Source: Patescibacteria group bacterium UBA926 (lineage in GTDB: Bacteria > Patescibacteriota > Doudnabacteria > UBA920). Taken from it: a DNA stretch of 64,000 bases. Position numbers and translations under genes: made by a program. The notes beneath the pieces were generated by a model. The model was not told where the DNA came from, ran no database searches, and worked only from the letters and a program-made list of their open reading frames with translations. Of the stretch, positions 1,255 to 21,280 are shown in pieces. Where the stretch lies: the NCBI GenBank assembly GCA_002293685.1, contig DBDS01000007.1, positions 40,140 to 104,139 of the forward strand, written 5' to 3'. Positions within the stretch are counted from its first letter, which is position 1, and each line of letters opens with the position of its first letter.

Positions 1255-1268
1255 GTAAACATAAATTT

Positions 1269-1652: not shown

Positions 1653-1663
1653 ATTGAAAAAAG

Positions 1664-4758: not shown

Positions 4759-4808
4759 TTCAATTGATGAGGCATTTTAGTATTTGAGCGAGTGGTCTGT
4801 CAAATTTA

Positions 4809-5846: not shown

Positions 5847-6022
5847 AACTTATTTAAAAATGTCATCCCGACGACCACATGTCCTGAGTAAAGTCGAAGG
5901 ACGCGGGCCAGCCGGGATCTGTGTTGGTATTATATCGGGTTTTGAAGCAAAACAAAAACCACTTAATTTCACTATAATAGTGCCCAATGATGGGAAAATG
6001 GCTTTTGTTAGACGTATAAAAA

Positions 6023-6250
6023 TTACATTGTGGAAGCAGAGGCTGGTGCTGAATCGCTTCCTTTCATGCTGTTGATGGCAACTAGGACCGCAGATAAACC
6101 TACCAATATATAAACAATGGTAGTTAGCATTGTATCCCCAAAGATTGTTGTAACTAGATTGAAGTTAAAAGCTCCAACTAGTCCCCAGTTCAAACCGCCA
6201 ACAACCAAGAGAATCATTGCGAGGGTATTTAGCATTTTCAAATTTCTCAC
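6023..6250 (-). CDS. DUF378-family small membrane protein.
   Basis: 75 aa with two transmembrane helices. The motif GGLNWGLVGAFNFNLV is typical of DUF378. Confidence 0.5.
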   Translation of the reverse strand: MRNLKMLNTLAMILLVVGGLNWGLVGAFNFNLVTTIFGDTMLTTIVYILVGLSAVLVAINSMKGSDSAPASASTM

Positions 6251-6368
6251 CCCCTTCCCTTACGAGATGAATTCTAACTCAATTATATCATTATTTAAGT
6301 GAAATTTTTTCAAACCTGTGTATAAAAAAACCGCCTCTATTTTTTATTGAAGAGACGGTTTTTGAAAT

Positions 6369-7781
6369 TTAAGCATGTGCAGGTTCTGACTCGGCTTGCT
6401 TTTTAAGCAAGTAAGAAAGAATTGGTGGTGTAAAGAGGGTAGTTAAGATTACCATGATGATGATAATCGAAAACACTTCATCATTTACAACACCGAGAGA
6501 TTTACCGATAGTGGCAAAAATCAATCCAACTTCTCCACGAGGAACCATCCCGAACCCGACCAAGTTCTTGTTGACACTGCCAGCAGCTAATCCGGAAAGC
6601 CATTTACCGATGAATGCTACTGCAGTAATTGCTAGTCCGACAAGAAGGATTTTTGGTTCGAATAAGGTAGCTAAATCAACGTTCATACCGGTGTATACGA
6701 AGAATAGCGGAACCAAGAACAGAGCGATTGGCTCGATTAGTTCTTCAACGTGCTTGTCGGAGTGGTGGGTAACAAGCTTCATAATCTTTTCTTTTCCAGC
6801 TTCATCAACGTGTTCCAAATGTTCTTCGATATCACGCGCCACTTTTGGTCTACGGAAGTACTTAAAGTGAACAGGGTCGAGCACAAGTCCGGCCGCGAAC
6901 GCGCCTACGATTGGAGCCAAGCCAATAAATCCAGCTACGGCCGCAAAGATTAACGCGAAGCTGATGGCGAGAGTGAACTTCATTCCAACGCCTGTGTGAA
7001 CTTTGGATAAGAAACGCCCGAAGTAAGGCGCAGTAAGCTGTCCAAGAACAATCGCACCAATTAAGAACGCAAGAGCTTTAACGATAATCAATCCTACTGT
7101 GCCCACACCAACTGTTCCAAGAGTTACAAGTGCAGAAACTACAGCCAAAATGATTAAACCAATTACGTCATCAATAACAGCCGCGCCAAGAACAATTTTT
7201 GCTTCAGGCAAACTGAGCTTGCCCAAATCTTTGAACACGCGAGCGGTAATACCTACTGATGTCGCGGTTAGAGCTGCACCGAGGAATAGGTAAGTGTTGA
7301 GTTCAAGACCTGGCATTAACAAAGGTCCAACCACCCAAGTTCCAAGGACAAACGGTGCTACAACACCAATGATTGCAACCATAAACGCACGCAAACCGAC
7401 TTTCTTCATCTCAACGATATTTGATTCCAAACCAACTTGGAATAACAAAATGATCACACCAAGTTCCGCAAGGAATGGAATGAATAAATCGCTTTTGATT
7501 GGCTCGAAAAAATTCAAACCGATTAAAGCTAGGTTACCAAGAACGATACCAATCACAAGCTCACCGAGTACTGCGGATTGTCCGAAGCGTTCAATTAAAC
7601 TTGCAAGCTTGGCAGCGACTAAGATTACCGCTAACCAAAGGATGCTCATTAGGAATCCATCACCACCTGCACCACCTGCTGCATGAACAACTGGAGCAAA
7701 AGTTAGGGTGATTAAACCCATGTAGATAAAAGTCTTCGCGCGCATTCGCGCTGGCCAGAAGCGGCCGAGTAGGGATTGCAT
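6369..7781 (-). CDS. Cation:proton antiporter (CPA family Na+/H+ or K+/H+ exchanger) with a C-terminal cytoplasmic extension.
   Basis: About 11 transmembrane helices with glycine-rich segments, then a charged soluble segment (DIEEHLEHVDEAGKEK). Confidence 0.6.
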   Translation of the reverse strand: MQSLLGRFWPARMRAKTFIYMGLITLTFAPVVHAAGGAGGDGFLMSILWLAVILVAAKLASLIERFGQSAVLGELVIGIVLGNLALIGLNFFEPIKSDLFIPFLAELGVIILLFQVGLESNIVEMKKVGLRAFMVAIIGVVAPFVLGTWVVGPLLMPGLELNTYLFLGAALTATSVGITARVFKDLGKLSLPEAKIVLGAAVIDDVIGLIILAVVSALVTLGTVGVGTVGLIIVKALAFLIGAIVLGQLTAPYFGRFLSKVHTGVGMKFTLAISFALIFAAVAGFIGLAPIVGAFAAGLVLDPVHFKYFRRPKVARDIEEHLEHVDEAGKEKIMKLVTHHSDKHVEELIEPIALFLVPLFFVYTGMNVDLATLFEPKILLVGLAITAVAFIGKWLSGLAAGSVNKNLVGFGMVPRGEVGLIFATIGKSLGVVNDEVFSIIIIMVILTTLFTPPILSYLLKKQAESEPAHA

Positions 7782-7905
7782 ATCTGAAATTAATCCATTT
7801 AATTTTTTAACAACCTAATCATTATATTCCTAATTTTTAAGTTTGCCAAGACAGATAGGGTAAAAAGAAAAAGCCGTCCCGAAAATTGGGACGGCGAAAG
7901 TTTTG

Positions 7906-9225
7906 CTAGGCGTTAACCGTGCGATTGAATCGCTTGGTTATATCCATCATTTCCATGCAGACTACGATTCCAACCATGCCGATTAACAGCTGAAGTCCGA
8001 ACGGCGGTTCGAGTCCTGTGTAGCTAATCCACATCGTGGTACCAACTTGCCAGAGTAGAAGATAGGGCGCAAAAACCCACGCTTCAATTAACCAGCCTTT
8101 GAAAACTTGGGCCGATGTTACGACCTTTGCCGCAACAAGTATGACGAGGAAAGTCACAATCTGTGGACCGTTACCGAGAGGTGAGAGTCCTCCATAGACT
8201 ACCGATGGGAAAAGATTGAACCACAACTGCATAGTCATGCCGAGCTTCTCGTACACTGGATACGCGGCAGCGAATGCGGCTGCGTTGTCTGCGCCGAGTG
8301 TCATCGCAATAACCGCCCAGTAAAGTTGATCCGGGGGAATGTCTGTGTGATGAAGCCCAAGGTGCGCGAATGACACAACCGAGAAGAACGCCAGAAAAAT
8401 CACGGCTGTCTCAATGGACCAGTGAATCGTGTGATGCCGAGCTTCTTTTGAAAAGAAGAGGCTAGATATCAAAGTGATCAAGAACACTGAGCCAAGGAAG
8501 ATTGTAATTTGAAATTCTCTTAAGAAGGTTATGGCGATGCTTATGCATAGCGCCAGTACACTTCCGTAAAGAATCTTTAACCAGCTTTTAGGTCGGATGG
8601 TTTTTAGTTCAAGGTAGATGTTTCCAAATTCAGTCCCAAGCCTTTTTAGGGAGATGTAATACAACACCGCTGTGAAAGACATATAGAGCCAGAATTTTGT
8701 AAACGGAAAGAAGTAATTCAGGGTTTGTCCCATCTGACCAAACTTTACAGCAAGGTACGATTGCGGCGGGTCTGCAGCCGTCGTACCAAGAGCTAGCATG
8801 TTCATCGAGAAGATTGCGACCGTGATAAGTATCAACAGCCTACGTTCTTCATCTCGACTTTTCAAAACATGATAGATGGACAGCAAGAGCGGTACTACCG
8901 CCCAGGTTGTTCCAAAGTTTCCTGCGAGTGGGAAGACAAGAAATAAAAGCCAACCAATTTTGGTTGTCTTGGGAACTTCGATCTCGAATAAATTAAGTCC
9001 GGCAATGGCTATCGCCACCAACGGCACCATGATGAATTGCGGGTAGTCCACTAAGAAGACATGCTTCGCAACTTCACGGGTTTCATCATTGTAGATCAAA
9101 AGAAAAATAATCGTAGGGAGAGACAAAAAAAGGAAAATTATTACCTTTTTTTTGAGGTCCCCGACCTTAAGCGACGTGTAAACAATTACGACTAAAATCG
9201 CTAATGCGACAAGAAAAAAGTGCAT
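7906..9225 (-). CDS. Polytopic integral membrane protein of unknown function.
   Basis: 439 aa with at least 10 predicted transmembrane segments. No catalytic motif recognised. Confidence 0.5.
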   Translation of the reverse strand: MHFFLVALAILVVIVYTSLKVGDLKKKVIIFLFLSLPTIIFLLIYNDETREVAKHVFLVDYPQFIMVPLVAIAIAGLNLFEIEVPKTTKIGWLLFLVFPLAGNFGTTWAVVPLLLSIYHVLKSRDEERRLLILITVAIFSMNMLALGTTAADPPQSYLAVKFGQMGQTLNYFFPFTKFWLYMSFTAVLYYISLKRLGTEFGNIYLELKTIRPKSWLKILYGSVLALCISIAITFLREFQITIFLGSVFLITLISSLFFSKEARHHTIHWSIETAVIFLAFFSVVSFAHLGLHHTDIPPDQLYWAVIAMTLGADNAAAFAAAYPVYEKLGMTMQLWFNLFPSVVYGGLSPLGNGPQIVTFLVILVAAKVVTSAQVFKGWLIEAWVFAPYLLLWQVGTTMWISYTGLEPPFGLQLLIGMVGIVVCMEMMDITKRFNRTVNA

Positions 9226-9380
9226 GATCCATAGATCCTCCTAGGTTTTTTTGTTTCGGTTATTTTCACACCGACTCGATATTTTACTACTTCTGGACTG
9301 TTTTGTCGAGGGGGTGGTATTACTAAATTTCTTGGTCGCGAAGGTGAATATGTTATAATTTAGTTAAATAATAAAGAACT

Positions 9381-9575
9381 ATGTGTGCAGTTTGTGGGTT
9401 AACTAGTATTCCAGCTTGTTCAGTTAGTGGTCAATGTGGGTTGAATATTCAACAGGTTGTTGGTGTTGCGGCTATATCGGGTGGCGCGGCTTTAACTTTG
9501 CTTCGTCATTGGTTAGCGGTCCGTGTGAAATCTGCGACGACAAAAATAAGTAAACTATTTAAACATGGAAGTTAA
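9381..9575 (+). CDS. Small Cys-rich peptide (64 aa), hypothetical. See finding.
   Basis: MCAVCGLTSIPACSVSGQCG followed by a hydrophobic stretch. An extended -10 (TGTTATAAT) lies about 30 bp upstream. Confidence 0.25.
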   Translation: MCAVCGLTSIPACSVSGQCGLNIQQVVGVAAISGGAALTLLRHWLAVRVKSATTKISKLFKHGS

Positions 9576-9915
9576 AAGATACGATATTTATTTAGTGGGA
9601 TTAGTAGTCTTGCACTTTGTGGTTTTTTTCCGAATTCTTTCTATGATAACAGTCGGTAGTGCTTTGCAAATGATGAGTATTGAAAATGGATTTGGATATA
9701 TGATGATAGCCATTTTTGTAGCCATTTTTTCTTTAAGTTTTTTCAATCTATCGCACATGTTTAGGATTACAACAAAGCCGAGCGGGGAGAATAGCTCGGC
9801 AGAAGTTTCGCAGTTACACGGAACCGCTCAAAGATTTTTGATCATCCTGTTAATCTACTTATTCCTTGAATGTATTCAAGCGCTTCATTACATGGGCGAA
9901 ATAGGTTCTGTGTAA
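9565..9915 (+). CDS. Hypothetical small membrane protein.
   Basis: 116 aa with three predicted transmembrane helices. Confidence 0.35.
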   Translation: MEVKRYDIYLVGLVVLHFVVFFRILSMITVGSALQMMSIENGFGYMMIAIFVAIFSLSFFNLSHMFRITTKPSGENSSAEVSQLHGTAQRFLIILLIYLFLECIQALHYMGEIGSV

Positions 9916-10112
9916 ATACCAAAACACCGCCATGAGGCGGTGTTTTGGTATTGGTAGAGGTCGTCTGAACGGCTGGAAAACTTATTTGGCTTTAATAAGA
10001 GAGCTGTATTTATGCCTGACGCGGATGGGTCCCTTGCAGGGTTGAAAACCCAATTAATCTTAAATCGGCAGATTCATGATATAATTTTATCGTAATATTA
10101 AAATTACCAAAT

Positions 10113-10820
10113 ATGCAGAAGGTGGCTTACGGAATCCTATTCTTCATAATAGGGTTGATTGGTTCGATTATACTCTTGCTAATAGTTAGCAACAAGTTGG
10201 ATACAAATTTGGGAGATATTCCATTTTTCATACTATCCTTTGTAGGTGCAATTCTGTTCTCAATTGTTGGCATAAAAAATACAGGTTATAAAGAAAGTAT
10301 TCATGCTAACATGGCATTTACAATCTTGGGAATATTATTAGGAATAATAGTCTCCTCCTTAATTGCGAACTTAATCTATGGTTCGTTTCCAAGTGTTATT
10401 GATAAGTATCCGTATTTTTATTTTGGTTTACTATTGCTGATTTGGGTGTTAGGTGCTTTGCTTGGCCATTGGGTGGGCAATCAGTATAATGCTATAAAAT
10501 TGGAACAAGGTGTTCAAAAGCAAAGTAAATTATCTAAATTCTTTTCTTATTATGTTTTTTCAGCAAAAAGGGTTGAAGGTAACTACATAATCTACGAAGT
10601 TGATACTAAACGCTATCGTCAATTCACTATTATGCTTTTAATAGTTGGGGTGACACAATATTTTGCGGGGATTAAGTATGTTTGGTTCACTGTATTGGTT
10701 ATAATTATTGATTTAAGTATCGGAAGTGTTACAAAACTGAACGATAGCTTAAGGGCTATTTCCAGGAAGAAAATAGTCAAAGAGAATGGCATTATAGAAT
10801 ACTGGTACGAAGTCGAGTAA
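10113..10820 (+). CDS. Hypothetical membrane protein.
   Basis: 235 aa with four N-terminal transmembrane helices. Two more transmembrane helices lie in the C-terminal half. Confidence 0.45.
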   Translation: MQKVAYGILFFIIGLIGSIILLLIVSNKLDTNLGDIPFFILSFVGAILFSIVGIKNTGYKESIHANMAFTILGILLGIIVSSLIANLIYGSFPSVIDKYPYFYFGLLLLIWVLGALLGHWVGNQYNAIKLEQGVQKQSKLSKFFSYYVFSAKRVEGNYIIYEVDTKRYRQFTIMLLIVGVTQYFAGIKYVWFTVLVIIIDLSIGSVTKLNDSLRAISRKKIVKENGIIEYWYEVE

Positions 10821-10942
10821 AGTAATCAAGTCAGAAAAGTTTTCATTCTCTTTTGGTCTACTCGAAATTGCCGTTTTGGAAAACTAATCCTTGACCAATA
10901 AAACCAAACTAAAAACCCCATTCTGGGGAATGAGGTTGTTAG

Positions 10943-10961
10943 TGGTAGCGCTACGGGGAAT
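10943..10961 (-). repeat. 19 bp direct repeat of the tRNA-Glu 3' end. Candidate att site remnant and left boundary of the island.
   Basis: TGGTAGCGCTACGGGGAAT is identical to 31811-31829, the 3'-terminal 19 nt of the tRNA on the minus strand. The flanks diverge immediately afterwards. Confidence 0.55.
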
Positions 10962-11289
10962 TCCGCCTCACCGCGCTGCTGCGCGGCTCGTTGTTCGGGG
11001 TTGCGAGAAACTGCTCCCAGCAGTTTCTCGATCGCTCGGTTTCAGTTTTCTCTGCTAGATACAACTTCACCTCGCTTCAACCCGTTCGATTCCTCTATAC
11101 CAATACCATAATAAAAACCCGAAGCAAGTTCGAGTTTTTATTATGGTAGTGATACCGCGTCTAGAACTGCCCAGATGGGGGAATTACAAGGGGTTTCAAG
11201 CATTCCCAGTATGGACGCTGCGACGCATCCGAGTCTGCCGTATAAATGCTACAAATGAGACATTATAAAAGCTATATAAGACTGTCTCA

Positions 11290-13503
11290 TTATATAATTT
11301 TTAAGCATTCGAAGAATTCGACAAGTATTGCTTTGATATCACCATCTGAAGCGGTTGAAGTGTTGTCATGAAGTTCAATTTGAAGGCTATCACATAATCT
11401 AATAAATCTTGTTTTCTTCGCAGGATCCCCATCGAATACCTTTATAGAAAATGTACGAACACTTTTTCTTTGAGCCAATTCGTCTTTTATATCGAAGTAG
11501 TACTTCCTTTTAAATATATTTTCTAAAATTATACGACAGTCATCTGCATATTTTTGATCAAAGCTTTCGTTAGCTAAAATATTTTGGACACGTTTTAGTC
11601 GATCAATAATATCATCATCTGGAAAATCTTGATCAATATCACAATATTCTATTTCGCTTTGTTTTGTGCCATCCGATATTTTTGAAGAGATTTTTAAAGT
11701 CTGAGCATTAGATAGTTCGGGGAGTTTTTTAAAATCCTTATAGAATTCTTTTTCATGAGTCAGAATAATCTTTTGTTTAGGTGTGTCAGTTCCATTAGAA
11801 ACGTCTGCTATAAAATGAATGGTTTTCATTTTTCTTTCTCTGTCAAAGCTTGAAAGAGGATCATCGAAAACTACAATCTTATTTTTTAGATCTTGATCAT
11901 GGCTTAAGATGGATAAGAAGAATGCAAAGGCTAAAAGACGCTTATCGCTTTCACTGAATGTGTTATGAAAGGATGGGGAATCTTCAGTGTCACCGTCTAT
12001 TGTGATTGAATGTTCGTTGAAGAATCGAATGGCGAAGATTCTTTCTTTTTGGTTACGCAATTTCTTTAGGGGTACAAAATCGATTATTTCGAAATCTGCA
12101 CCAAGTTGGGAACAAAATGAATTAATAGTACCTTTATGTTCACTAAAGATTGTAGTTGAGTATTCTTCCAGTTCTTTTCTTTGGAGATCGCGCTTGTAAC
12201 GCAACTCATTAGCTGTTTTCTCTATTTGTGCGCTACTGTCAAAGAATTCTACCCACTCTGGTTCGAATCTCTTTTTAATATTTTCTAAATCAATCTTTTC
12301 GTCCCGAAGTTGTTTTATATCTATGGCGCCAGGCTCCGCTACACTTGCTTGCAAGTTTTTTATGTCTCCTAAAATTCTACTGAATTCGCTCTTGATGAGA
12401 ACAAAGTCAGGATTTTCTGCGCAATTCACAATCAAATTTAAGTTTTTTTGTTTAGCCTCAACTATAAGGTCGAATCTTTTTTTAGCAGAGACTATCTCTT
12501 GTTTTTGGGTTTCGGTGATATTTAAGGTGACGCCAATTTGTTTAAACTCAGTAATAGTTTTATCCAGCACACTTTCTATATCCCATCTAAGAAAGCTATT
12601 ACCCGTAGTTTCTATCTCATTTCTTAATGCTTCATATTCTTCACGAAATAGCTCCTTGTATGATTTAATTAAATCTTGTGCTTCGCTTAAAAGCGCTTGT
12701 CCACAAAAAACACAATTTGTTGCATTCTCACCCAATAGCTCAACTCCTTCTTTCAAAAATTGTTGCGAGTGGAATTTGTCTTTCCAGTGTTTTGATATAT
12801 GCTCTTCTACTGCATCTTGTTTAGCATCAAAAGTCTTATCAAAAGTAGTTTCATAAGAGATGAAGTCGGTATTAAAAACATTGTTCCTGACTAAGTTGTT
12901 AAATTGAACCTGTTCGTCGAAAAATTTGATTTTTTCGTCTAAGACTTTAATATGTTCATCAATATCAGGGTCGTTCTCAACAGCACCCAATTTCTTAAAA
13001 TCTGCTCCTGGAAAGCTTCTAGAAAATTCTGTAGTTTTAGCACTTTTCTGTGCGGTTAATTTATCAGATTCTATCTGTAGATCGTTGATCTGTTTCTGAA
13101 GCAATTTACCTCGTTCGCCAATAATAATTTCATTTAAGTTTTTTTGATGCTCAAAAGAAATCTGTTCGCCATCAAATATATTTTCAGCTATAAATTTAGT
13201 ATCAAAAATATGGATGTCTCTGTTCTGATTATTCCATTTTCCATTTTGAAAAAGATATGAGGTTTTTATTCCCCCATCTTCAAAGTCTAAAGATATTTTT
13301 TGATCATCCGTTGATCCAAAACTTCTCCTGCTGATGACTAAATTTCCGACCCCAGTCTTGAGAGAGCGGAGGATGGCAGTAAAGGTGCTTTTGCCACAAG
13401 TATTGTGAGCAAATATCAAAGTATTTATACCAAACTCCTGACCAGGCGGATGACTGTCTCTAAATTTCCCTACATTTTTTATGTTTTGAATTCTTTTAAG
13501 CAT
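11290..13503 (-). CDS. RloC-like ABC-type ATPase with a long coiled-coil insert carrying a CxxC zinc hook. Candidate anticodon-nuclease or abortive-infection defence protein.
   Basis: Walker A (NTLIFAHNTCGKSTF) near the N-terminus. A coiled-coil region of about 500 aa contains CVFCGQ, a Rad50-like hook. Walker B/D-loop (KIVVFDDPLSSFD) lies near residue 545, followed by a C-terminal domain of about 190 aa. This architecture matches the RloC/PrrC family. Confidence 0.45.
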   Translation of the reverse strand: MLKRIQNIKNVGKFRDSHPPGQEFGINTLIFAHNTCGKSTFTAILRSLKTGVGNLVISRRSFGSTDDQKISLDFEDGGIKTSYLFQNGKWNNQNRDIHIFDTKFIAENIFDGEQISFEHQKNLNEIIIGERGKLLQKQINDLQIESDKLTAQKSAKTTEFSRSFPGADFKKLGAVENDPDIDEHIKVLDEKIKFFDEQVQFNNLVRNNVFNTDFISYETTFDKTFDAKQDAVEEHISKHWKDKFHSQQFLKEGVELLGENATNCVFCGQALLSEAQDLIKSYKELFREEYEALRNEIETTGNSFLRWDIESVLDKTITEFKQIGVTLNITETQKQEIVSAKKRFDLIVEAKQKNLNLIVNCAENPDFVLIKSEFSRILGDIKNLQASVAEPGAIDIKQLRDEKIDLENIKKRFEPEWVEFFDSSAQIEKTANELRYKRDLQRKELEEYSTTIFSEHKGTINSFCSQLGADFEIIDFVPLKKLRNQKERIFAIRFFNEHSITIDGDTEDSPSFHNTFSESDKRLLAFAFFLSILSHDQDLKNKIVVFDDPLSSFDRERKMKTIHFIADVSNGTDTPKQKIILTHEKEFYKDFKKLPELSNAQTLKISSKISDGTKQSEIEYCDIDQDFPDDDIIDRLKRVQNILANESFDQKYADDCRIILENIFKRKYYFDIKDELAQRKSVRTFSIKVFDGDPAKKTRFIRLCDSLQIELHDNTSTASDGDIKAILVEFFECLKII

Positions 13504-13598: not shown

Positions 13599-14204
13599 AT
13601 GAACAAAAAAGTAAAAAAGCCAGAATTTACATATCCTTTTAACGATAAAGAGCATGAAGAATCTCTTAAGTTTTTAGATATTCGTAGAATGAATATGGTA
13701 AGTCAACGTGGTTCTAAAGTCGAACTAACGGAAACCATGTATCACAGTAGTAAATATCACAAACTTGAGCTGAAAGAAACAATTTACATAAAGAAAAGTG
13801 AAAGTAAGAATTTAGGCGAAATTTTATATCTCCGTCCCCATAATCAAGTAAAGGGTCAAAAATACTTAGTGTTTGCAGTAAATATCAAGAAGGATGGTAA
13901 AGTATATTTTGCTCGAGAAACAATTCTTGAGAAAGTGGCAGAGTTCTCTAATGACCAATGGATGATCATAAAGACGTTTTATGAATCAAAAAACGTTTCG
14001 CTAAAGGACGCACTAGAAATTATTAGCCGCCATACAGGTGGGGTATATAATACCACCGGATCGCTGAGGTCAACTATTAATAAGATCAACCGTAAAATAA
14101 AGAGTGCATTCAAGTTAACAGAAAACGATAAAATGATAAGTGGTGAACAAGGCAGTGGTTACTCTTTTAATTCACATATCCGCTTAAATGTAATTGAAGA
14201 TTAA
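13599..14204 (+). CDS. Hypothetical protein, divergently transcribed from the ATPase gene.
   Basis: 201 aa. No recognisable motif. Possible C-terminal DNA-binding region. Confidence 0.45.
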   Translation: MNKKVKKPEFTYPFNDKEHEESLKFLDIRRMNMVSQRGSKVELTETMYHSSKYHKLELKETIYIKKSESKNLGEILYLRPHNQVKGQKYLVFAVNIKKDGKVYFARETILEKVAEFSNDQWMIIKTFYESKNVSLKDALEIISRHTGGVYNTTGSLRSTINKINRKIKSAFKLTENDKMISGEQGSGYSFNSHIRLNVIED

Positions 14205-14359
14205 TACTAATTAGGTGTAGTGGATAAATCTTCTTAAAAGCCTTATTTTAAAGGCTTTTTTGTTTGTTTTAATTTTTCTGGTTGCACGTTTCAATAACGT
14301 GCTTTTTGGTTATGCTGAATTTGATAAAGCTATCTACATTATTAATTAAAATAAATTTT

Positions 14360-15637
14360 ATGAGCAAGAAAATAATTTGGCATACGGAAAAGAGAGTAGT
14401 GAAAGACCTTATTCGATACGAGAAAAACCCGCGTAAACTTTCGTCCTCACAACTTGAAGGCTTGAAACGCAGTCTTAAGAAATTTGATGTTGCAGAGTTA
14501 CCATGTATTAACACTGACGGAACATTAGTAGTAGGGAATCAGCGCGTAATGGTGCTATCGCTTCTTGGGCGGGAAAATGAAGAAATAGAAGTGAGAGTCC
14601 CAAACAGATTACTCTCGGAAGCAGAATTTAAGGACTACCTTCTTACATCGAATCGCAGTGGCGGCACGTTTGACTACGAAAAACTTGCTGCGGATTTTGA
14701 TCTAGAAGAACTATTAACAGCAGGTTTTGATTCGTTAGATTTAAGTAATATCTTTGACGATAATCTGGAAATCAACGATGACGAATTCGATGAAGTCCGT
14801 GAGCTTGAGAAAGCAAAAACTACTGATATAAAGATTGGTAACATGTTTAGGCTAGGTAGGCATTTCTTAATCTGTGGAGATGCCCTTGATCCTAATACTG
14901 TTAAAAAACTCATGGGAGATGCTCGTGCCGACCTTATCGACACAGATTTGCCATACAATATAGGACTCTCCTATGATCGTGGTGTAAGTAACCACCGAAG
15001 CTTCGGCGGTTCTACAGACGATAGTAAACCTGACGAGCAGTACAAACAGTTCGTTAAAACGATTATGCAAAATTCATTATCTGTTGCTAAGAAAGATGCG
15101 CATTGCGCATGGTGGTGCGATGAACGATATGTCTATATTTTTCAGCAAATCTATAAAGAGCTTGGTATTGATTCCAAACGGCTTCTTATCTGGGTAAAGA
15201 ATAATCAATCGGTTACTCCTAAGAACGCATTTAATAAGATTACAGAGTTTGCAGTGTATGGCACTATCGGCAAGCCTTGGCTGAATGACAAAGTAAGAAA
15301 CTTGCACGAGGTTCAAAACAAAGAAATAACTACCGGCAATCGAGTTATCGAAGACATTCTTGATCTTATAAATATCTGGTTGGTTAAAAGAATACCAGGT
15401 TCAGAGATGGATCACCCAACAGAAAAAAGTCCGACTATTCACGAAAAGATTCTGCGCCGTTGTACTCGTCCTGGAGACATTGTTTTAGATATGACTGCAG
15501 GATCTGGAAGTATACTATCGGCTTGTGAGCAATTAAAACGAACTGCTTACGTGTGCGATTATGAACCTATTTTCTGTCAGTTAATAATTAATAGATTTAA
15601 ACAAATATCAAATGAAAAAGTTATCAAGCTCAATTAA
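14360..15637 (+). CDS. ParB-like nuclease domain fused to an N6-adenine/N4-cytosine DNA methyltransferase (phage-type).
   Basis: N-terminal ParB/Srx box (EKNPRKLSSSQLEGLKRSLKKF). Methyltransferase motif IV variant DLPYN and motif I (DMTAGSGS). The first Met at 14360 is the preferred start. Confidence 0.7.
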   Translation: MSKKIIWHTEKRVVKDLIRYEKNPRKLSSSQLEGLKRSLKKFDVAELPCINTDGTLVVGNQRVMVLSLLGRENEEIEVRVPNRLLSEAEFKDYLLTSNRSGGTFDYEKLAADFDLEELLTAGFDSLDLSNIFDDNLEINDDEFDEVRELEKAKTTDIKIGNMFRLGRHFLICGDALDPNTVKKLMGDARADLIDTDLPYNIGLSYDRGVSNHRSFGGSTDDSKPDEQYKQFVKTIMQNSLSVAKKDAHCAWWCDERYVYIFQQIYKELGIDSKRLLIWVKNNQSVTPKNAFNKITEFAVYGTIGKPWLNDKVRNLHEVQNKEITTGNRVIEDILDLINIWLVKRIPGSEMDHPTEKSPTIHEKILRRCTRPGDIVLDMTAGSGSILSACEQLKRTAYVCDYEPIFCQLIINRFKQISNEKVIKLN

Positions 15638-16370
15638 ACTTGGAAACACTTTTCGCTTAGGGTCGCACTTGCTGTTTTGCGGCGATTCTCGAAATAAAGA
15701 AATGGTTGCAAAGCTTATTGGCAAATATAAAATCAAAGCAGTTATCACTGATCCTCCCTACGGTGTTGCAGTCACGGAAAGCAAGGAAAAATTCCAAGCC
15801 CTCTCTAAAAATAAACCCATTCTAAACGATCACTTGCAGAGTGATGAAGAGTACCAAGTCTTTAGCCGTGAATGGATTGAAGTTATAACCCCATACCTTG
15901 AACTTAAAAATAGCTTCTACATTTTTAACTCAGATAAAATGGTTTTTGCTTTACGCGAAGGTATGTTAAACGCAGGTATTAAACTTGCGCAGCTTCTAGT
16001 CTGGGTAAAAACCCAAGCAGTTATTGGAAGAATGGATTATGCACCTCAGCATGAATTAATTGCATATGGATGGCTTGGTGTGCATGAGTTTCTTAAATCT
16101 AAAGATAAAAGTGTACTAGTATGTCCGAAACCAAACAAAAGTAATATGCATCCTTCTACTAAACCTTTAGATTTGATCCGTAGACTTATCCTTAATAGCA
16201 CTCGCATTGGCGATATAGTCTTTGACGGCTTTCTTGGGAGTGGCACTACCTTGCTTGCCTGCGAACAGACAAAGCGAATCTGTATCGGTGTAGAAATGGA
16301 TACCGAGTATTGCCAAACTATAATAGATAGGTTTGAAAAATTAACTGGCGTAAAAGCAGAAAAGTTATGA
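15612..16370 (+). CDS. N6-adenine/N4-cytosine DNA methyltransferase, beta class.
   Basis: Motif IV DPPY (VITDPPYGVAV) precedes motif I FLGSGTT (DGFLGSGTTLLACEQ). Confidence 0.8.
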   Translation: MKKLSSSIKLGNTFRLGSHLLFCGDSRNKEMVAKLIGKYKIKAVITDPPYGVAVTESKEKFQALSKNKPILNDHLQSDEEYQVFSREWIEVITPYLELKNSFYIFNSDKMVFALREGMLNAGIKLAQLLVWVKTQAVIGRMDYAPQHELIAYGWLGVHEFLKSKDKSVLVCPKPNKSNMHPSTKPLDLIRRLILNSTRIGDIVFDGFLGSGTTLLACEQTKRICIGVEMDTEYCQTIIDRFEKLTGVKAEKL

Positions 16371-16804
16371 GTAGGAAAGACACTATTAAGCAGCGGCAGA
16401 ACAAACTCAAAGAAGCATTTCTGACTCAGCTTAAACGTTCACCGACCATTGAAACATCTTGTCAGAAAATCGGCATTGCTAGAGCCACAGTCTATCGCTG
16501 GATAACTGCCAGTGAAAAATTTGAGCGGCAAGTTGATAAGGCTCTACATGAAGGTCGAACGTTTATGTCAGACATTGCCGAAAATCAACTCTTCTCCCTT
16601 ATTAGTGATAAGAAAATTGAAGCAATTAGGCTTTTCCTTTCTACACATAATCCTCGCTATAGTAATAAGCTTGAATTATCCGGATCAGTCGCAGCTAAAG
16701 ATGAAAAGCTCACCAAAGAACAGAAGAAATTGATTCGCGCTGCTCTCAAACTTTCCTCTCTAAACAAACATGAAAACAAAAGTAGAAAAAATAAACAGCC
16801 TTGA
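16367..16804 (+). CDS. Small HTH protein, putative terminase small subunit.
   Basis: HTH (IGIARATVYRWI). 145 aa. Immediately upstream of, and overlapping, the TerL gene. Confidence 0.4.
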   Translation: MSRKDTIKQRQNKLKEAFLTQLKRSPTIETSCQKIGIARATVYRWITASEKFERQVDKALHEGRTFMSDIAENQLFSLISDKKIEAIRLFLSTHNPRYSNKLELSGSVAAKDEKLTKEQKKLIRAALKLSSLNKHENKSRKNKQP

Positions 16805-18233
16805 GTCAGTATTAGAAAAAATCTTGGTTGATAAAACTGTTCGTACTAATACTGTTACGAAAAGTCTTGAATACTTTTTCCCTATTTACTTTCATCGGTA
16901 TATGGAATACGAGACTGCGCCTTTTCATGAAGATATGTTTCGTATTCTTGAAGATGACCAGATTAAACTGGCAGTTATTGTGGCCTTTAGGGGATCAGCT
17001 AAATCAACTATCATTACTACTGCCTATGTCTTGTGGTCTATTTTAGGTGTGCAGCAACGGAAGTTCATCGTCATTTGCGGACAGACCGAGCAAAAGGCTC
17101 GCCAGTATTTGTTAAACATAAAAAATCAACTACTGCACAATGAACTACTACGAAAAGATCTTGGTCCCTTTGAAGAAGAAAAGAATAACTTAGGTAATGC
17201 AACAGCTTTAATTATCAAAAGATTGAATGTCAAAATAATGATTAGTTCGGTTGAGCAAAGCATTCGCGGAATGAGACATGATGAGCATCGCCCTGACCTT
17301 ATTATTTTAGATGACATTGAAGACATTAATTCAGTGAAGACCCGCGAAGGCAGAGATAAGGCATTTAACTGGCTCACTGGCGAAGTGATTCCTGCGGGTA
17401 GCAAACGCACTCGCATCATTGCAGTTGGTAATTTGTTGCATGAAGATTCAGTCTTAAAGAGGTTGCAGAAAAAAATTGAAGGCGGTGAAATGGAGCGAAT
17501 GCGGGGCGTGTATCGAGAATATCCTATTGTCGATGCCAAAGGAAATGCACTCTGGCCAGGAAAATATCCGACTGCTGAAGATGTAGAAATGGAGCGAGAG
17601 AAAACTATGAACGAAGTGGCATGGTATAGAGAATATATGCTGCAGATTATTACGACCGATGAACAAATAGTAATACCTGAATGGATTCACTTTTATGACA
17701 ACATGCCAGCTGATGGACTACGCAGTATTTGTATCGGTGTAGATCTTGCTGTCAGTGAAAAGAGTTCAGCTGACTGTACTGCCATAGTTGTTGGGTATGT
17801 ATTCGGTACAGGTAAAAACTTGAAGATATATATTCAAGAACACCCGTATAATAAGCGGTCGTCGTTTCCCGTTCATGCAGAATATATTAAAGGACTAGTA
17901 GCTAGAGAAAAAATGATGCATTCTCGAGTGAAGTTATATATTGAAGATGTAGGGTATCAAAAAGCTCTCATTCAATATTTTGAAAGCAAGAAATACGATG
18001 TTGAAGGCGTGCCAACCGGCAGAACAGACAAAGCAGCAAGACTTCGCCTAACTACTCCACTACTTAAAGATGCTAGAGTCTTATTCCCTGAAAAAGGTGC
18101 CGAGGAGTTAATTGATCAGCTACTAGGTTTTGGGAAAGAAAAACATGATGACCTGGCAGATGCATTTGCCATATTAGCTTTGAAGATTATTGAGAATAAT
18201 CCTATCCAATCTACAGGGATTCTTATTGGGTAA
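16770..18233 (+). CDS. Phage terminase large subunit (ATPase plus RNaseH-like nuclease).
   Basis: Walker A-like FRGSAKST. Walker B LIILDDIED. C-terminal nuclease acidic residues (DLADAF). 487 aa. Confidence 0.7.
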   Translation: MKTKVEKINSLESVLEKILVDKTVRTNTVTKSLEYFFPIYFHRYMEYETAPFHEDMFRILEDDQIKLAVIVAFRGSAKSTIITTAYVLWSILGVQQRKFIVICGQTEQKARQYLLNIKNQLLHNELLRKDLGPFEEEKNNLGNATALIIKRLNVKIMISSVEQSIRGMRHDEHRPDLIILDDIEDINSVKTREGRDKAFNWLTGEVIPAGSKRTRIIAVGNLLHEDSVLKRLQKKIEGGEMERMRGVYREYPIVDAKGNALWPGKYPTAEDVEMEREKTMNEVAWYREYMLQIITTDEQIVIPEWIHFYDNMPADGLRSICIGVDLAVSEKSSADCTAIVVGYVFGTGKNLKIYIQEHPYNKRSSFPVHAEYIKGLVAREKMMHSRVKLYIEDVGYQKALIQYFESKKYDVEGVPTGRTDKAARLRLTTPLLKDARVLFPEKGAEELIDQLLGFGKEKHDDLADAFAILALKIIENNPIQSTGILIG

Positions 18234-18555
18234 ATATTTTAAATTTTAGCTGGACTTTATAAGAGTTCAGCGGTACTGTTGTCCTTATGAATAATTAGAC
18301 ACAGAAAGGAGCTTGTAGAGAAAAACGTTGATTCTTAAGGAGAAAATCCGTATAATAATAGTAACAATTTATTAAGTAGCCTAAACCGTTTTTATTGGCG
18401 GCATGGTGAAAAGCCCCATGGAAAATACTGAACCCTGCGTTCAGCGTCCTTCCATGGGCCATATCGGGAAACTGATATGGAAGCTTCGGCTTCAGCTGGC
18501 GTGGGGCTTTGTGTTATACAAAGCGTGAAGCCAGCAGAAAGACCCATGGAAAACA

Positions 18556-19500
18556 ATGAAACAATGTCCTTATTGCGCTGAAGAGGTGCAAGAAGCAGCG
18601 ATTGTCTGCAAACACTGCAAGAGAAGTTTATCAACCGCACCTTCTCCTGTAGTAAACCCTAATGTGCAAACCACTGGTACGGATTGGCTAAATATATTTA
18701 AATGGATTGGTATTGTCATACTGATAATCATGGCAATCCCTTTGTGGTTCATAAGTATCCCCACTCTTATTGGTTGGTACTTATTCAAGAAGAAGAAAAA
18801 CAAATTCAGCAAACGCACAAATATACTTATTACCGTAGGGGCGTTTGTAATATTTATTGTATTGTTCAGTGTTAATGAACACTCTAATAAACCACCAGAA
18901 ATAACTATTATAGAGCCGCAAGAACAATCTAGCGTACAAGCTGAGTCAGTAATCGTTAAAGGTACTGTTAACCCTGTAGATAGCACAATTAGCGTTAATG
19001 GGATTATTATCCCAATGGATAATGGAAACTTTACCTATGAGCTAGCTCTGAATGACGAAAGCAATACCGTCAATTTTATAGCAGCGCGAGAAGATAAAAC
19101 TACAGAAAAAACATTTGTAGTAAACCGGGTATTTACACCTGAAGAAATAGCAGCAAGAGAAGCTAAAAAACAGGCAGAGCTTGAAGCACAGAAGAAAGCT
19201 CAGGCAGAGGCTGAGGCTAAAGCTGTTGCCGAACAAGCTGCATATGACAGAAGTAAAGCAGGTCAGCTTTGCAAGCAACATATTGATTGGACTAAAGAAG
19301 ATTGCCAAAGAGTTGCTGACCGAAAAATTTGGGTTGGCATGACGTATGACATGCTAATTGCCTCTTACGGTGGTAAGCCAAGAAGTGCTAACCCTTCAAA
19401 CTACGGAGGCAAAACTCAGTGGCAATGGTGTTTTGATACCCTGAGCCCATCATGTTTTTACGACAACAATGATGATGGCATAATTGATAGCTATAACTAA
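18556..19500 (+). CDS. Zinc-ribbon membrane protein with an extracytoplasmic Ig-like region, a coiled coil and a Cys-containing C-terminal domain.
   Basis: N-terminal CPYC...CKHC zinc ribbon, two transmembrane helices, coiled coil EAKKQAELEAQKKAQAEAEAK, four C-terminal Cys. Confidence 0.5.
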   Translation: MKQCPYCAEEVQEAAIVCKHCKRSLSTAPSPVVNPNVQTTGTDWLNIFKWIGIVILIIMAIPLWFISIPTLIGWYLFKKKKNKFSKRTNILITVGAFVIFIVLFSVNEHSNKPPEITIIEPQEQSSVQAESVIVKGTVNPVDSTISVNGIIIPMDNGNFTYELALNDESNTVNFIAAREDKTTEKTFVVNRVFTPEEIAAREAKKQAELEAQKKAQAEAEAKAVAEQAAYDRSKAGQLCKQHIDWTKEDCQRVADRKIWVGMTYDMLIASYGGKPRSANPSNYGGKTQWQWCFDTLSPSCFYDNNDDGIIDSYN

Positions 19501-19515
19501 ACATAATTTAAAGAA

Positions 19516-19797
19516 ATGGAAAATACAGAAAAGCAGTGTCCGTACTGCGCTGAAGTAATTAAAAAGGAAGCTGTCATTTGCAAACACTGCGGTCATGATT
19601 TACAGACTGGACAACCATCAGATTCGCTGAGGTTAGAAAATCGACCTGTGGTAGAAATAGTTAAACCTGCTAAAGCCGCGAGTACTATTAGTGATGGGGT
19701 AAAACTAGGTTGTGGGATGTTTATAATATTACCGATTATTATTGTAGTGATAATTATTGTGATTATAGCTATAGCCATGGCAGGAGCAGGAGCTTAA
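19516..19797 (+). CDS. Small zinc-ribbon membrane protein, paralog of the N-terminus of the preceding gene.
   Basis: CPYCAEVIKKEAVICKHCGHDL followed by one transmembrane helix rich in Ile/Val. Confidence 0.45.
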   Translation: MENTEKQCPYCAEVIKKEAVICKHCGHDLQTGQPSDSLRLENRPVVEIVKPAKAASTISDGVKLGCGMFIILPIIIVVIIIVIIAIAMAGAGA

Positions 19798-19927
19798 TTA
19801 AACCAATTATTATCATTTACAAAATTAGTATGCATAAGTTTTAGATCATTTGGGGTTATAAGTTATCTACTTTAGGTCTAGACTTACTTTAACCCATCCG
19901 GTACTGTGTCCCTGAAAGGAAAAAGTT

Positions 19928-21280
19928 ATGGAAAATGAAGCACTCAAAGAGGCTTTAGCTAGTACAATAGCCAGTAGGCAAATAGAGGCAATACCAGCGC
20001 AGCCAGTAAAGTATTGCCTCTACGCCAGAAAATCAACTGAGCAAGAAGAAAGACAAGTATTGTCCATAGACTCTCAGATTAAAGAGATGCTCGCCGCCGC
20101 AGAACGAGATAGCCTTAACATAGTAGAGATTAGAAAAGAAAGCCATTCTGCTAAAGATTCAGGCCAGCGACCTGTGTTCAATGGGTTGATAACAGACATC
20201 CGTGAAAAGAAGTTCAACGGTATTCTGACATGGGCACCAGATCGGTTAAGTAGAAACGCTGGCGATCTGGGTAGCTTAGTAGATTTAATGGATCAAAAGC
20301 TGCTGGAAGAAATTCGCACTAATGGCCAGCGGTTTAGTAATAACCCAAATGAAAAGTTCTTGCTAATGATTCTATGCAGTCAAGCTAAGCTTGAGAATGA
20401 CAATAAGAGCTTGAATGTAAAAAGGGGATTACGAGCAAAAGCTGAATTAGGATTGTGGGCAAACCCTGCACCAACTGGATATTTGCATGAAAAGCGGACT
20501 GACAGAAAAGGTTACATCATGCTTGACCCAAAGCGTGCGCCGATCATCAAGAAGATGTTTGAGAAAGTAGCTAATGAACAATATTCTGGCAGAAGATTAT
20601 ATGGTTGGTTAAAAGATGAGATCAAATTCACCACTAAGAATGATAAACCTCTTGCTTTAGGAAATATATACAGAATACTAAAAAACACCATGTACTATGG
20701 TGTTTTTGAATATCCTGTTAATAGCGGTAACTGGTACACGGGTAAACATACACCGATTATCACTCAAGATTTATATTTGAAAGTACAAGAACAGATTAAT
20801 ACTGAGGGCCACAATTATGCTATAAAAGAATTTGCTTTTACAAAGCTTATTACATGCGGGTTATGTGGATCAGGAATTACAGCCATGGAAAAATTGAAGA
20901 AATTGGTGGATGGGACGACGAGTAGATACATATATTACGGCTGTACCCGAAGCAGAGATATTAATTGCAAGGGTGGGTATTTACGAGAGGAAGAATTAAT
21001 AACACAGCTCTCGAAAATTATTGATGAAATGGATATTAATGAACTTGGGATTAAACATCAACTTGAGCAGGAGATTGTAAGGTATGACAGGTTTCAATAT
21101 GGGGTGCTTGGTAAGAAAAAAGAAGCGATGCCTAGTAAGATGGATAATGATGTAGATATTCGCACCTATGCTAAGTATATACTGAAGCAGGGGAGCATCG
21201 TCGAAAAACGAGAACTACTCGGATGTTTGAAAAGTAACGTGGTGCTAACTGATAAGCAAATTAGCTTAAAGAATGTCTAG
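19928..21280 (+). CDS. Large serine recombinase (integrase or resolvase family).
   Basis: N-terminal resolvase catalytic domain (YARKSTEQEE with the catalytic Ser, LSRN), recombinase domain, C-terminal zinc ribbon (CGLCGS...YYGCTRSRDINC) and coiled coil. Confidence 0.85.
   Translation: MENEALKEALASTIASRQIEAIPAQPVKYCLYARKSTEQEERQVLSIDSQIKEMLAAAERDSLNIVEIRKESHSAKDSGQRPVFNGLITDIREKKFNGILTWAPDRLSRNAGDLGSLVDLMDQKLLEEIRTNGQRFSNNPNEKFLLMILCSQAKLENDNKSLNVKRGLRAKAELGLWANPAPTGYLHEKRTDRKGYIMLDPKRAPIIKKMFEKVANEQYSGRRLYGWLKDEIKFTTKNDKPLALGNIYRILKNTMYYGVFEYPVNSGNWYTGKHTPIITQDLYLKVQEQINTEGHNYAIKEFAFTKLITCGLCGSGITAMEKLKKLVDGTTSRYIYYGCTRSRDINCKGGYLREEELITQLSKIIDEMDINELGIKHQLEQEIVRYDRFQYGVLGKKKEAMPSKMDNDVDIRTYAKYILKQGSIVEKRELLGCLKSNVVLTDKQISLKNV

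What the first reader, a model, noticed from the sequence alone, without database searches (positions are those of the whole stretch)
11290..13503. RloC-like ATPase with a Rad50-type CxxC zinc hook: candidate anticodon-nuclease or abortive-infection defence gene at the island edge
The protein has 737 aa. It has an N-terminal Walker A (AHNTCGKST) and Walker B/D-loop (VVFDDPLSSFD) about 500 residues later. Between them is a predicted coiled coil whose centre carries CVFCGQ. That is the architecture of RloC (the PrrC-related wobble-nucleotide-excising tRNase), a DNA-damage or phage-sensing suicidal defence protein. The C-terminal domain of about 190 aa after Walker B is uncharacterised and could be the nuclease. 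The gene lies directly beside the att-like remnant and is divergently transcribed from a 201-aa unknown gene that may be a partner.
Basis: inference. Interest (0 to 1): 0.7.

Follow-up and report, generated by a model that had tools for sequence, protein, structure and literature searches.

The report
RloC-family anticodon-nuclease defence gene
This gene is an ordinary member of the known RloC family, suicidal anti-phage enzymes that sense DNA trouble and cut tRNA; here it sits in a Patescibacteria (ultra-small bacterium) genome as swappable defence cargo at the edge of a small mobile element.

Summary
The RloC reading also holds.

- **Profiles:** Pfam places it in AAA_13. PADLOC gives a full-length PDC-S06 hit (2.9e-60), and a published table shows PADLOC's PDC-S06 and DefenseFinder's RloC label the same proteins. 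IMG names two relatives 'wobble nucleotide-excising tRNase'.
- **C-terminal domain:** It carries RloC's defining R-X3-E-X36-52-H triad (R657, E661, H712). Modelled alone, it folds as a HEPN RNase domain.
- **Conservation:** Of 163 relatives, 162 keep the CxxC hook and 161 the triad.
- **Partner gene:** The 201-aa neighbour is not a partner. No relative of it occurs in 80 RloC-like loci, and it travels with the methylase-terminase module.
- **Context:** The 'att-like remnant' is a conserved ~190-nt border element. A sister strain carries a Dsr1-like defence gene in the same slot, and related elements carry type I R-M, GmrSD or DISARM-like genes.

Verdict: a new member of a known kind, of modest interest. 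tRNA cleavage, zinc binding and phage protection are inferred, not shown. The mobile element is the more novel side lead.

The parts
11290..13503 (-). RloC-family gene, 737 aa: ABC-ATPase head, coiled-coil/zinc-hook insert, C-terminal HEPN anticodon-nuclease-type domain
   Evidence: ORF. Pfam AAA_13 1e-21. PADLOC PDC-S06 2.9e-60 over the full length. PDC-S06 and RloC label the same proteins. AF2 model pLDDT 85.
13384..13410 (-). Walker A / P-loop AHNTCGKST (residues 32-40)
   Evidence: G37, K38 and T40 are invariant in A1.
12106..13155 (-). Helical (coiled-coil-type) insert, residues 117-466, splitting the ABC head
   Evidence: AF2 secondary structure. Foldseek top hits are SMC/Rad50/cohesin heads with coiled coils.
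12703..12714 (-). CxxC zinc-hook motif CVFC (C264, C267), preceded by FLKEG
   Evidence: Invariant in A1. Present in 162 of 163 relatives. Hook fragments of published RloC orthologues align here. Weak profile match to the Rad50 hook structure 1l8d.
11941..11958 (-). ABC signature-like motif FSESDK (516-521)
   Evidence: S517 and D520 are invariant. It aligns to the signature region of RecF/Rad50.
11842..11877 (-). Walker B / D-loop IVVFDDPLSSFD (543-554)
   Evidence: D547, D548, P549, S552 and D554 are invariant. Verified.
11749..11766 (-). Switch (linchpin) histidine region ILTHEK; H583 invariant
11293..11640 (-). C-terminal HEPN-fold domain (residues 622-737) with triad R657-x3-E661-x50-H712 (RIILENIFK ... 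ELHDN)
11085..11270 (.). Conserved ~190-nt non-coding border element just downstream of the gene. It contains a tRNA T-loop-like GTTCGATTCC and a ~20-bp hairpin (11098-11154). This is the 'att-like remnant'.
   Evidence: It is the only DNA shared with sister strain L159 beyond the point where the backbones diverge. The hairpin folds in both strains despite sequence changes, z = -6 to -9. No Rfam match.
13599..14204 (+). 201-aa ORF, first gene of the methylase-terminase module; not an RloC partner
   Evidence: No homologue in 80 RloC-like loci. A 54% homologue sits upstream of the methylase in L141. No family hits.
14282..21280 (+). Core of the mobile element: two N6_N4 DNA methylases, terS-like HTH, terL, LOOT RNA (18378-18493), a Zn-ribbon/Ig-like protein, and a large serine recombinase (19928-21280)
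   Evidence: Pfam. Rfam LOOT, 70 bits. The same module recurs in L141-L146 and L012.

Best explanation
The gene encodes a member of the RloC family, a single-protein abortive-infection defence enzyme.

Shown here: the protein has a Rad50/SMC-like ABC-ATPase head. The head is split by a helical insert of about 350 residues whose centre carries an invariant CxFC hook motif. A C-terminal HEPN-fold domain follows, carrying the R-x3-E...H triad that is catalytic in G. kaustophilus RloC and E. coli PrrC.

Inferred by homology with characterised RloC: the protein dimerises through its heads, and its hooks coordinate zinc and keep the nuclease silent. Binding of DNA ends (from phage replication, or from damaged or restricted DNA) together with ATP hydrolysis releases that inhibition. 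The HEPN domain then cuts tRNA anticodon loops on both sides of the wobble nucleotide, which stops translation and aborts the infection.

Shown by context: the gene is cargo in a variable defence slot at the edge of a small integrative element (two methylases, terS, terL, LOOT RNA, large serine recombinase) in a Patescibacteria genome. It acts alone; the neighbouring 201-aa gene is not its partner.
For: Family assignment:
- Pfam AAA_13, 1e-21.
- PADLOC PDC-S06, 2.9e-60, covering residues 1-676.
- PMC11811056 supplementary file 6 lists the same B. cereus proteins as 'RloC' (DefenseFinder) and 'PDC-S06' (PADLOC).
- IMG names P0017 (a full-length relative, profile E = 2.5e-224) and P0166 (a member of the P0022 cluster) 'wobble nucleotide-excising tRNase'.

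Defining features from Davidov & Kaufmann 2008 are all present: ABC motifs, a CC/zinc-hook insert with CxxC, an R-X3-E-X36-52-H triad, and a size within 683-895 aa.

Key residues are collinear with those mutated in GkaRloC (K44, C291, D572, R692, E696, H737). Here they are K38, C264/C267, D547/D548, R657, E661 and H712.

Conservation and structure:
- The hook is present in 162 and the triad in 161 of 163 relatives.
- Hook fragments of 12 of 13 published RloC orthologues align to the hook position of this subfamily's profile at 4.6-14.7 bits. Two joined fragments reach 17-18 bits, and the best of 200 shuffles reaches 4.4.
- AF2 model, pLDDT 85; the head and coiled coil match SMC/Rad50 structures.
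- The C-terminal domain modelled alone (pLDDT 83.6) hits HEPN toxins, the AbiA HEPN domain, Csm6/Csx1, sacsin and RnlA.

Defence context:
- The sister strain has a Dsr1-like gene in the same slot.
- Relatives sit next to GmrSD/HNH plus an EcoRI-type methylase, CBASS, and recombinases.
- Related elements carry type I R-M, or DISARM-like plus type IIG R-M genes.
Against: - No biochemical or genetic test was possible. tRNA cleavage, wobble excision, zinc binding, activation by DNA ends and phage protection are all inferred.
- I could not retrieve a full-length sequence of an experimentally characterised RloC. The direct comparison rests on OCR'd hook fragments, motif positions and third-party labels.
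- The closest relatives are only 48% identical or less, and the 25-26%-identical members of A1 (P0012-P0014) differ considerably in the HEPN domain.
- The HEPN domain lacks a canonical Rx4-6H; the spacing here is R702-x9-H712.
- Even for authentic RloC, protection against phage in a natural host is poorly documented in the papers I read.
- No restriction endonuclease is present in the window to act as an upstream trigger.
Confidence: 0.8

Rival explanations
1. It is an ABC-ATPase-HEPN defence RNase of the wider PrrC/RloC/APECO1_4465 group, but with a different target or cleavage mode from RloC. It might make a single anticodon-loop nick, or cut mRNA or rRNA. In that case 'wobble-nucleotide excision' would not apply.
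For: The HEPN paper describes several separate ABC-HEPN families, one of them (APECO1_4465) typical of prophages. HEPN RNases differ widely in target. This protein's E-to-H spacing (X50) is near the upper end of the RloC range, and its HEPN region diverges among relatives. Substrate-recognition residues are known only for PrrC.
Against: The architecture, the hook and the triad match RloC specifically. PrrC has no coiled coil. All profile and label evidence says RloC. I had no APECO1_4465 sequence to compare against.
Confidence: 0.13
2. It is a Rad50/SbcC/RecN-type DNA-repair or chromosome-maintenance ATPase that works with a separate nuclease and is not an RNase.
For: The whole-chain fold search returns only SMC, Rad50, cohesin and condensin heads. 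The profile-versus-PDB search hits RecF and Rad50 ABC motifs.
Against: It has a C-terminal HEPN domain with an invariant R/E/H triad, which Rad50 and SbcC lack. No Mre11/SbcD-type gene is adjacent. It lies on a mobile element in a slot that holds Dsr1 in a sister strain. Its patchy distribution across phyla is typical of defence genes. The window already contains UvrA and UvrC as genuine repair genes.
Confidence: 0.02
3. The gene mainly serves the mobile element rather than the host. It might act as an addiction or stabilisation toxin, or as a weapon against competing phages or the helper phage. In that case the element's own methylases or DNA packaging would control its activation.
For: It is the first gene inside the element's conserved border. 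It is transcribed divergently from the methylase-terminase module. Some relatives form operons with DNA methylases or restriction genes.
Against: Methylase linkage is not general: only 4 of 80 loci have a similar methylase nearby. The slot carries unrelated defence systems in other elements, which argues for generic defence cargo rather than a dedicated element function. This rival concerns the beneficiary, not the mechanism, so it overlaps the best explanation.
Confidence: 0.05

Closest known systems
RloC (Geobacillus kaustophilus GkaRloC; COG4694; DefenseFinder 'RloC', which labels the same proteins as PADLOC 'PDC-S06')
   Same: Same domain order and size class. ABC head motifs are shared, including a DD-type Walker B. 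A long helical insert carries a central C-x-F-C hook preceded by a [WF]-[VL]-x-x-G motif. The C-terminal domain has an R-X3-E-X36-52-H triad. It is a single-gene system on mobile DNA with no obligatory R-M linkage.
   Different: It is shorter than GkaRloC (737 versus 804 aa) and has a shorter insert. The E-to-H spacing is 50 residues here versus 40 in GkaRloC. The host is a Patescibacteria bacterium. Its closest relatives are only 48% identical or less. No activity data exist.
PrrC (E. coli anticodon nuclease of the prr/EcoprrI locus)
   Same: An ABC-ATPase N-domain plus a HEPN-type ACNase C-domain with an Arg-Glu-His triad, acting as an abortive-infection tRNase.
   Different: PrrC is about 400 aa, has no coiled-coil/zinc-hook insert, and is always embedded in a type I R-M locus that silences it. 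This protein has the insert, has no hsd genes nearby, and gave no hit to PADLOC's PrrC model.
Rad50 / SbcC / SMC-family ATPases (including the defence relatives LmuB of Lamassu and JetC of Wadjet)
   Same: A split ABC head, an antiparallel coiled coil and an apical CxxC hook. These are the best structural matches to the N-terminal 620 residues.
   Different: Those proteins have no fused RNase domain and work with separate nuclease or kleisin partners. Here the effector is a fused HEPN domain.
APECO1_4465-type ABC-ATPase-HEPN proteins of prophages (Anantharaman et al. 2013)
   Same: An ABC-ATPase fused to a C-terminal HEPN domain, located on integrated mobile elements.
   Different: I had no sequence of that family, so I could not compare them. 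The profile labels obtained here point to RloC.

Membership tests
RloC | PrrC-like ABC-ATPase motifs: Walker A, signature, Walker B/D-loop, switch His | tested here: met
   AHNTCGKST 32-40, FSESDK 516-521, IVVFDDPLSSFD 543-554 and H583 are all invariant or nearly so in A1. They align to RecF/Rad50 ABC motifs.
RloC | Coiled-coil insert with a central CxxC zinc hook inside the ATPase domain | tested here: met
   The helical insert spans 117-466, with C264-x-x-C267 in a loop between helices. The cysteines are invariant and present in 162 of 163 relatives. Published RloC hook fragments align to this position.
RloC | C-terminal ACNase triad Arg-X3-Glu-X36-52-His | tested here: met
   R657-x3-E661-x50-H712. 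Conserved in A1 and in 161 of 163 relatives. The definition comes from PMC2610378.
RloC | C-terminal domain has the HEPN RNase fold (Anantharaman et al. 2013) | tested here: met
RloC | Recognised by family profiles or labels used for RloC | tested here: met
   PADLOC PDC-S06, 2.9e-60. The same proteins carry the DefenseFinder RloC and PADLOC PDC-S06 labels. Pfam AAA_13. IMG labels relatives 'wobble nucleotide-excising tRNase'.
RloC | Demonstrable full-length homology to an experimentally characterised RloC (GkaRloC) | tested here: inconclusive
   The full sequence was not obtainable, and the OCR fragment search failed. Only hook-region fragments and collinear mutated-residue positions could be compared.
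RloC | Excises the tRNA wobble nucleotide; ACNase switched on by a DNA-dependent ATPase and modulated by zinc | not testable with these tools
   This needs expression, tRNA analysis and in-vitro assays.
PrrC | About 400 aa, with an ABC domain that has no coiled-coil/hook insert | tested here: not met
   737 aa with a 350-residue insert.
PrrC | Embedded in a type I R-M (hsd) locus | tested here: not met
   No hsd or any other restriction endonuclease gene is in the window.
PrrC | Matches the PrrC profile | tested here: not met
   No PADLOC PrrC hit at E <= 0.1. A relative, L012, gives only a weak local hit at 1.1e-5.
Rad50/SbcC/RecN repair ATPases | ABC head, coiled coil and hook, working with a separate adjacent nuclease and having no fused RNase domain | tested here: not met
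   A fused HEPN domain is present, and no Mre11/SbcD-like neighbour exists.
HEPN superfamily (canonical) | Rx4-6H active-site motif | tested here: inconclusive
   H712 lies between the last two helices, where HEPN catalytic histidines lie. The nearest upstream conserved Arg is R702 (Rx9H). An E661-x3-K665 motif fits the Ex3[KR] motif. The HEPN paper itself calls PrrC/RloC domains atypical.

The most novel reading that the evidence does not exclude
The RloC gene may be one interchangeable cargo of a previously undescribed family of small integrative elements in Patescibacteria/CPR bacteria. The core of the family is two N6/N4 DNA methylases, terS, terL, the LOOT RNA and a large serine recombinase. 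No virion genes were seen in the element copies I examined. Next to a conserved hairpin-bearing border, the elements carry a defence-gene slot: RloC here, Dsr1 in a sister strain, and type I R-M, GmrSD or DISARM-like/type IIG genes in relatives. If the elements are packaged by a helper phage through their own terminase, they would be phage-satellite-like carriers of immunity in ultra-small symbiotic bacteria. That would also give the orphan LOOT RNA a biological context.
Probability: 0.35. Interest if true: 0.55.

Novelty: new member of a known kind. Interest (0 to 1): 0.3.

Why it matters
For the gene itself the value is confirmatory. It is a clean, intact RloC-family member in which every defining sequence feature can be pointed to. 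Together with relatives in Paceibacterota, Saccharibacteria, Parcubacteria and Peribacteria assemblies, it shows the family reaches into Patescibacteria, whose anti-phage repertoire is poorly charted. A full-text search found no paper discussing RloC in Patescibacteria. RloC's natural trigger and its anti-phage role remain thinly documented, so well-defined natural contexts are useful. Here the gene is allelic with Dsr1 in a sister strain, which is strong guilt-by-association evidence for a defence role. The more interesting lead is the carrier element and its LOOT RNA.

Tried and rejected
1. I tried to retrieve full-length G. kaustophilus RloC by searching with residues 121-540 OCR'd from the 2008 supplement. 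Nothing scored because the OCR was too garbled. I fell back on scoring the hook-region rows against the subfamily profile.
2. A second word-indexed homology search with alignment A1 added only two distant proteins. The exhaustive representative search was what revealed the family's true size.
3. PDB by sequence gave no hit for the single protein. The profile gave only generic ABC, RecF and Rad50 hits. I found no solved RloC or PrrC.
5. The HEPN paper's held supplement contains no alignments.
6. A tblastn search against 50,697 sequenced phage genomes found no match.
7. A literature search for PF13166 gave nothing linking it to RloC. A LOOT + terminase search found no papers.
8. Partner hypothesis for the 201-aa ORF: rejected.
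9. A search for an 'empty site' through exact look-ups of flanking host proteins found only contigs with the island or contig breaks. A sister strain instead showed a different occupant.
10. An Rfam search of the downstream intergenic region found nothing even at E <= 1. ARAGORN found no tRNA there.
11. RNAalifold on the two border hairpins failed because MAFFT mis-registered them. Separate folds were used instead.
12. Direct-repeat att sites flanking the island: only short chance-level repeats were found. I believe serine recombinases do not generate long flanking repeats, so this is not surprising.
Full report
**Observation.** An intact ORF runs from 13503 to 11290 on the minus strand, starts with ATG and encodes 737 aa. 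Walker A is AHNTCGKST at residues 32-40. The hook CVFCGQ is at 264-269. Walker B/D-loop is IVVFDDPLSSFD at 543-554. I also found an ABC signature-like FSESDK (516-521), a switch histidine in ILTHEK (H583), and an R657-x3-E661-x50-H712 pattern in the C-terminal tail (RIILENIFK ... ELHDN). The ORF is not a chance reading frame. Its closest relatives score E = 1e-201. An exhaustive profile search found 10,240 cluster representatives at E <= 1e-3 and 1,950 at E <= 1e-30; nearly all of the 150 best listed are full-length proteins of about 750-770 aa. The gene is 100% identical in six contigs assembled from the same organism in other samples, with a single mismatch in a seventh.

**Profile evidence.**
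- Pfam assigns AAA_13 (PF13166) at 1e-21.
- PADLOC gives a full-length hit to candidate system PDC-S06 (PDLC04895, 2.9e-60, residues 1-676), plus five weaker PDC-S06 models and nothing else.
- PDC-S06 is listed as an unpublished, untested candidate system.
- The supplementary table of a Bacillus cereus defence survey (PMC11811056, file 6) lists the same proteins (EJR26746.1, EJR26942.1) as 'RloC' under DefenseFinder and 'PDC-S06' under PADLOC. The PADLOC hit therefore amounts to an RloC call.
- IMG names two full-length relatives 'wobble nucleotide-excising tRNase', the COG4694/RloC label. These are P0017 (profile E = 2.5e-224) and P0166 (a member of the P0022 cluster).
- NCBIfam has no matching model.
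- PHROGs gives only an unknown-function family, phrog_2801.

**Test against the published definition of RloC.** Davidov & Kaufmann (PMC2610378) define RloC by four features:
- PrrC-like ABC-ATPase motifs.
- A coiled-coil insert with a central CX2C zinc hook.
- A C-proximal Arg-X3-Glu-X36-52-His motif that matches PrrC's catalytic R320/E324/H356.
- A size of 683-895 aa.

All four are met. The residues mutated in GkaRloC are K44, C291, D572, R692, E696 and H737. They are collinear with K38, C264/C267, D547/D548, R657, E661 and H712 here. In the 14-sequence alignment A1, C264, C267, R657 and E661 are invariant, and H712 is missing only from one truncated sequence. Across 163 relatives, 162 have a hook (119 CPFC, 25 CVFC) and 161 have the triad.

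I could not obtain a full-length authentic RloC sequence, because a search with the OCR'd supplement text failed. The supplement does list the hook regions of 13 orthologues, all of C-x-F-C type with an upstream W-V-x-x-G motif. Twelve of these fragments align to the hook position of this subfamily's profile at 4.6-14.7 bits. Two joined fragments reach 17-18 bits, and the best of 200 shuffled controls reaches 4.4. The signal is modest but consistent in position.

**Structure.** AlphaFold2 with A1 gave a confident model (mean pLDDT 85.1). It shows a beta-rich ABC head formed by residues 1-116 and about 470-620, and a helical insert spanning 117-466. The CxxC lies in a loop between helices 243-257 and 273-285. 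A helical C-terminal domain follows.
- Foldseek against PDB returns only SMC, cohesin, condensin and Rad50 heads with coiled coils, plus the defence proteins LmuB and JetC.
- The sequence profile weakly matches the Rad50 zinc-hook crystal fragment 1l8d at the right position (E = 0.058).

This agrees with the published assignment of PrrC and RloC nuclease domains to the HEPN superfamily (PMC3710099). H712 lies in the loop before the last helix, where HEPN catalytic histidines lie. E661-x3-K665 fits the Ex3[KR] motif. A canonical Rx4-6H is not present.

**Context.** The host is a Patescibacteria (CPR) bacterium. The window's exact serine recombinase sequence is NCBI HAG27466.1, 'Patescibacteria group bacterium'. 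The rest of the window is housekeeping: ValRS, TsaD, DsbA/B, UvrA, UvrC, RNase J and similar genes. The gene lies in a low-GC island of about 9.3-21.3 kb. Divergent from it runs a module containing:
- a 201-aa ORF;
- two N6_N4 methylases;
- a terS-like HTH protein and terL;
- a LOOT RNA (RF03000, 70 bits);
- a Zn-ribbon/Ig-like protein;
- a large serine recombinase.

This module recurs at 45-84% protein identity in six IMG/VR contigs and in a Parcubacteria MAG. LOOT RNA is present in four of these.

The 201-aa ORF has no homologue in any of 80 RloC-like loci from named genomes. Its one homologue found elsewhere sits upstream of the methylase in L141, a contig where no RloC-like gene was detected. 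It therefore belongs to the module and is not an RloC partner.

**The slot.** A sister strain (GCA_022842405.1) is 97.4% identical to window 1-7783 and then diverges. The only further shared DNA is a ~190-nt non-coding element (window 11085-11270, 72% identity), immediately downstream of the RloC gene. It contains a tRNA T-loop-like GTTCGATTCC and a ~20-bp hairpin that folds in both strains despite many sequence differences (z = -6 to -9).

Just inside it, the window has RloC. The sister strain has a 1,132-aa Dsr1-like protein (PADLOC 2.1e-45) plus two small ORFs, followed in both strains by a divergent methylase and terS. Related elements carry other defence cargo:
- type I R-M (L141, L144);
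- a DISARM-like SNF2/PLD helicase plus a type IIG R-M enzyme (L145);
- an EcoRI-type methylase, GmrSD/HNH and an RloC-like gene (L012).

Other close relatives lie beside CBASS and methylase fragments, or between integrase and recombinase genes. About a dozen IMG/VR contigs carry full-length relatives. The family is scattered over many bacterial phyla and some archaea. All of this fits a horizontally mobile, single-gene defence system.

**Mechanism.** The architecture, motif conservation, folds and defence-slot context are shown here. The following steps are inferred from GkaRloC (PMC2610378, PMC3458546):
1. Head dimers with zinc-linked hooks keep the HEPN nuclease silent.
2. DNA ends plus ATP hydrolysis release it.
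3. It cuts on both sides of the tRNA wobble nucleotide.
4. Translation stops and the infection aborts.

I put about 0.9 on family membership and 0.8 on the overall explanation.

**Verdict.** The finding is correct and well read, but it is a new member of a known family and not a new kind of system. Interest is modest (0.3). The carrier element, with its LOOT RNA and interchangeable defence slot, is the more novel lead. I followed it up only partly.

Noticed in passing
window 13599-21280; also L141-L146, L012, L159: A compact conserved module (201-aa ORF, two N6_N4 methylases, terS, terL, LOOT RNA, large serine recombinase) recurs in six IMG/VR contigs and two Patescibacteria genomes at 45-84% identity. 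No capsid, portal or tail genes were seen. It carries variable defence cargo: type I R-M, DISARM-like/type IIG, GmrSD, RloC or Dsr1. It looks like a satellite-like, terminase-bearing integrative element family.
   Followed up: partly
window 18378-18493 (+); L012 13371-13492, L142 6985-7099, L144 8787-8899, L145 1287-1423: A LOOT RNA (Rfam RF03000, 62-84 bits) lies next to the terminase-recombinase genes in the window and in four related elements. This orphan RNA motif appears to be a standing component of the element family.
   Followed up: partly
window 11085-11270 (hairpin 11098-11154); L159 7144-7326: A conserved ~190-nt non-coding border element contains a tRNA T-loop-like GTTCGATTCC and a ~20-bp hairpin kept by compensatory changes between strains. 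It has no Rfam match. It could be an att site, a terminator for the cargo genes, or a small RNA.
   Followed up: partly
L159 2754-6152 (sister strain GCA_022842405.1): A 1,132-aa Dsr1-like protein (PADLOC 2.1e-45) plus 197-aa and 120-aa ORFs occupy the slot that holds RloC in the window. This is allelic exchange of defence systems between near-identical backbones.
   Followed up: partly
window 7784-10820: A block of unannotated, mostly membrane-protein ORFs (439, 64, 116 and 235 aa) is absent from the sister strain, which has only a 72-aa ORF there. Two same-species contigs (L151, L152) break about 260 bp past the 439-aa gene. This is a second variable segment between the backbone and the border element.
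   Followed up: no
window 10921-11020: A short GC-rich patch (54-68% GC) sits inside an AT-rich non-coding gap and contains two terminator-like hairpins (10914-10937 on the minus strand, 10971-10986 on the plus strand). It was found only in this organism's contigs, and its function is unknown.
   Followed up: no
L141 1-750 (-), L144 3049-3906 (-): In two related elements, an HNH_5 endonuclease gene lies divergent from the methylase-terminase module, in the position RloC occupies in the window. I recall that HNH proteins often assist terminases in cos cleavage.
   Followed up: no
L083 4370-6180 and 8637-12265: A 43%-identical relative (P0004) overlaps the end of a split N6_N4 methylase gene and lies about 4 kb from a CBASS pair (SMODS + S_4TM). 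This is a typical defence island.
   Followed up: no
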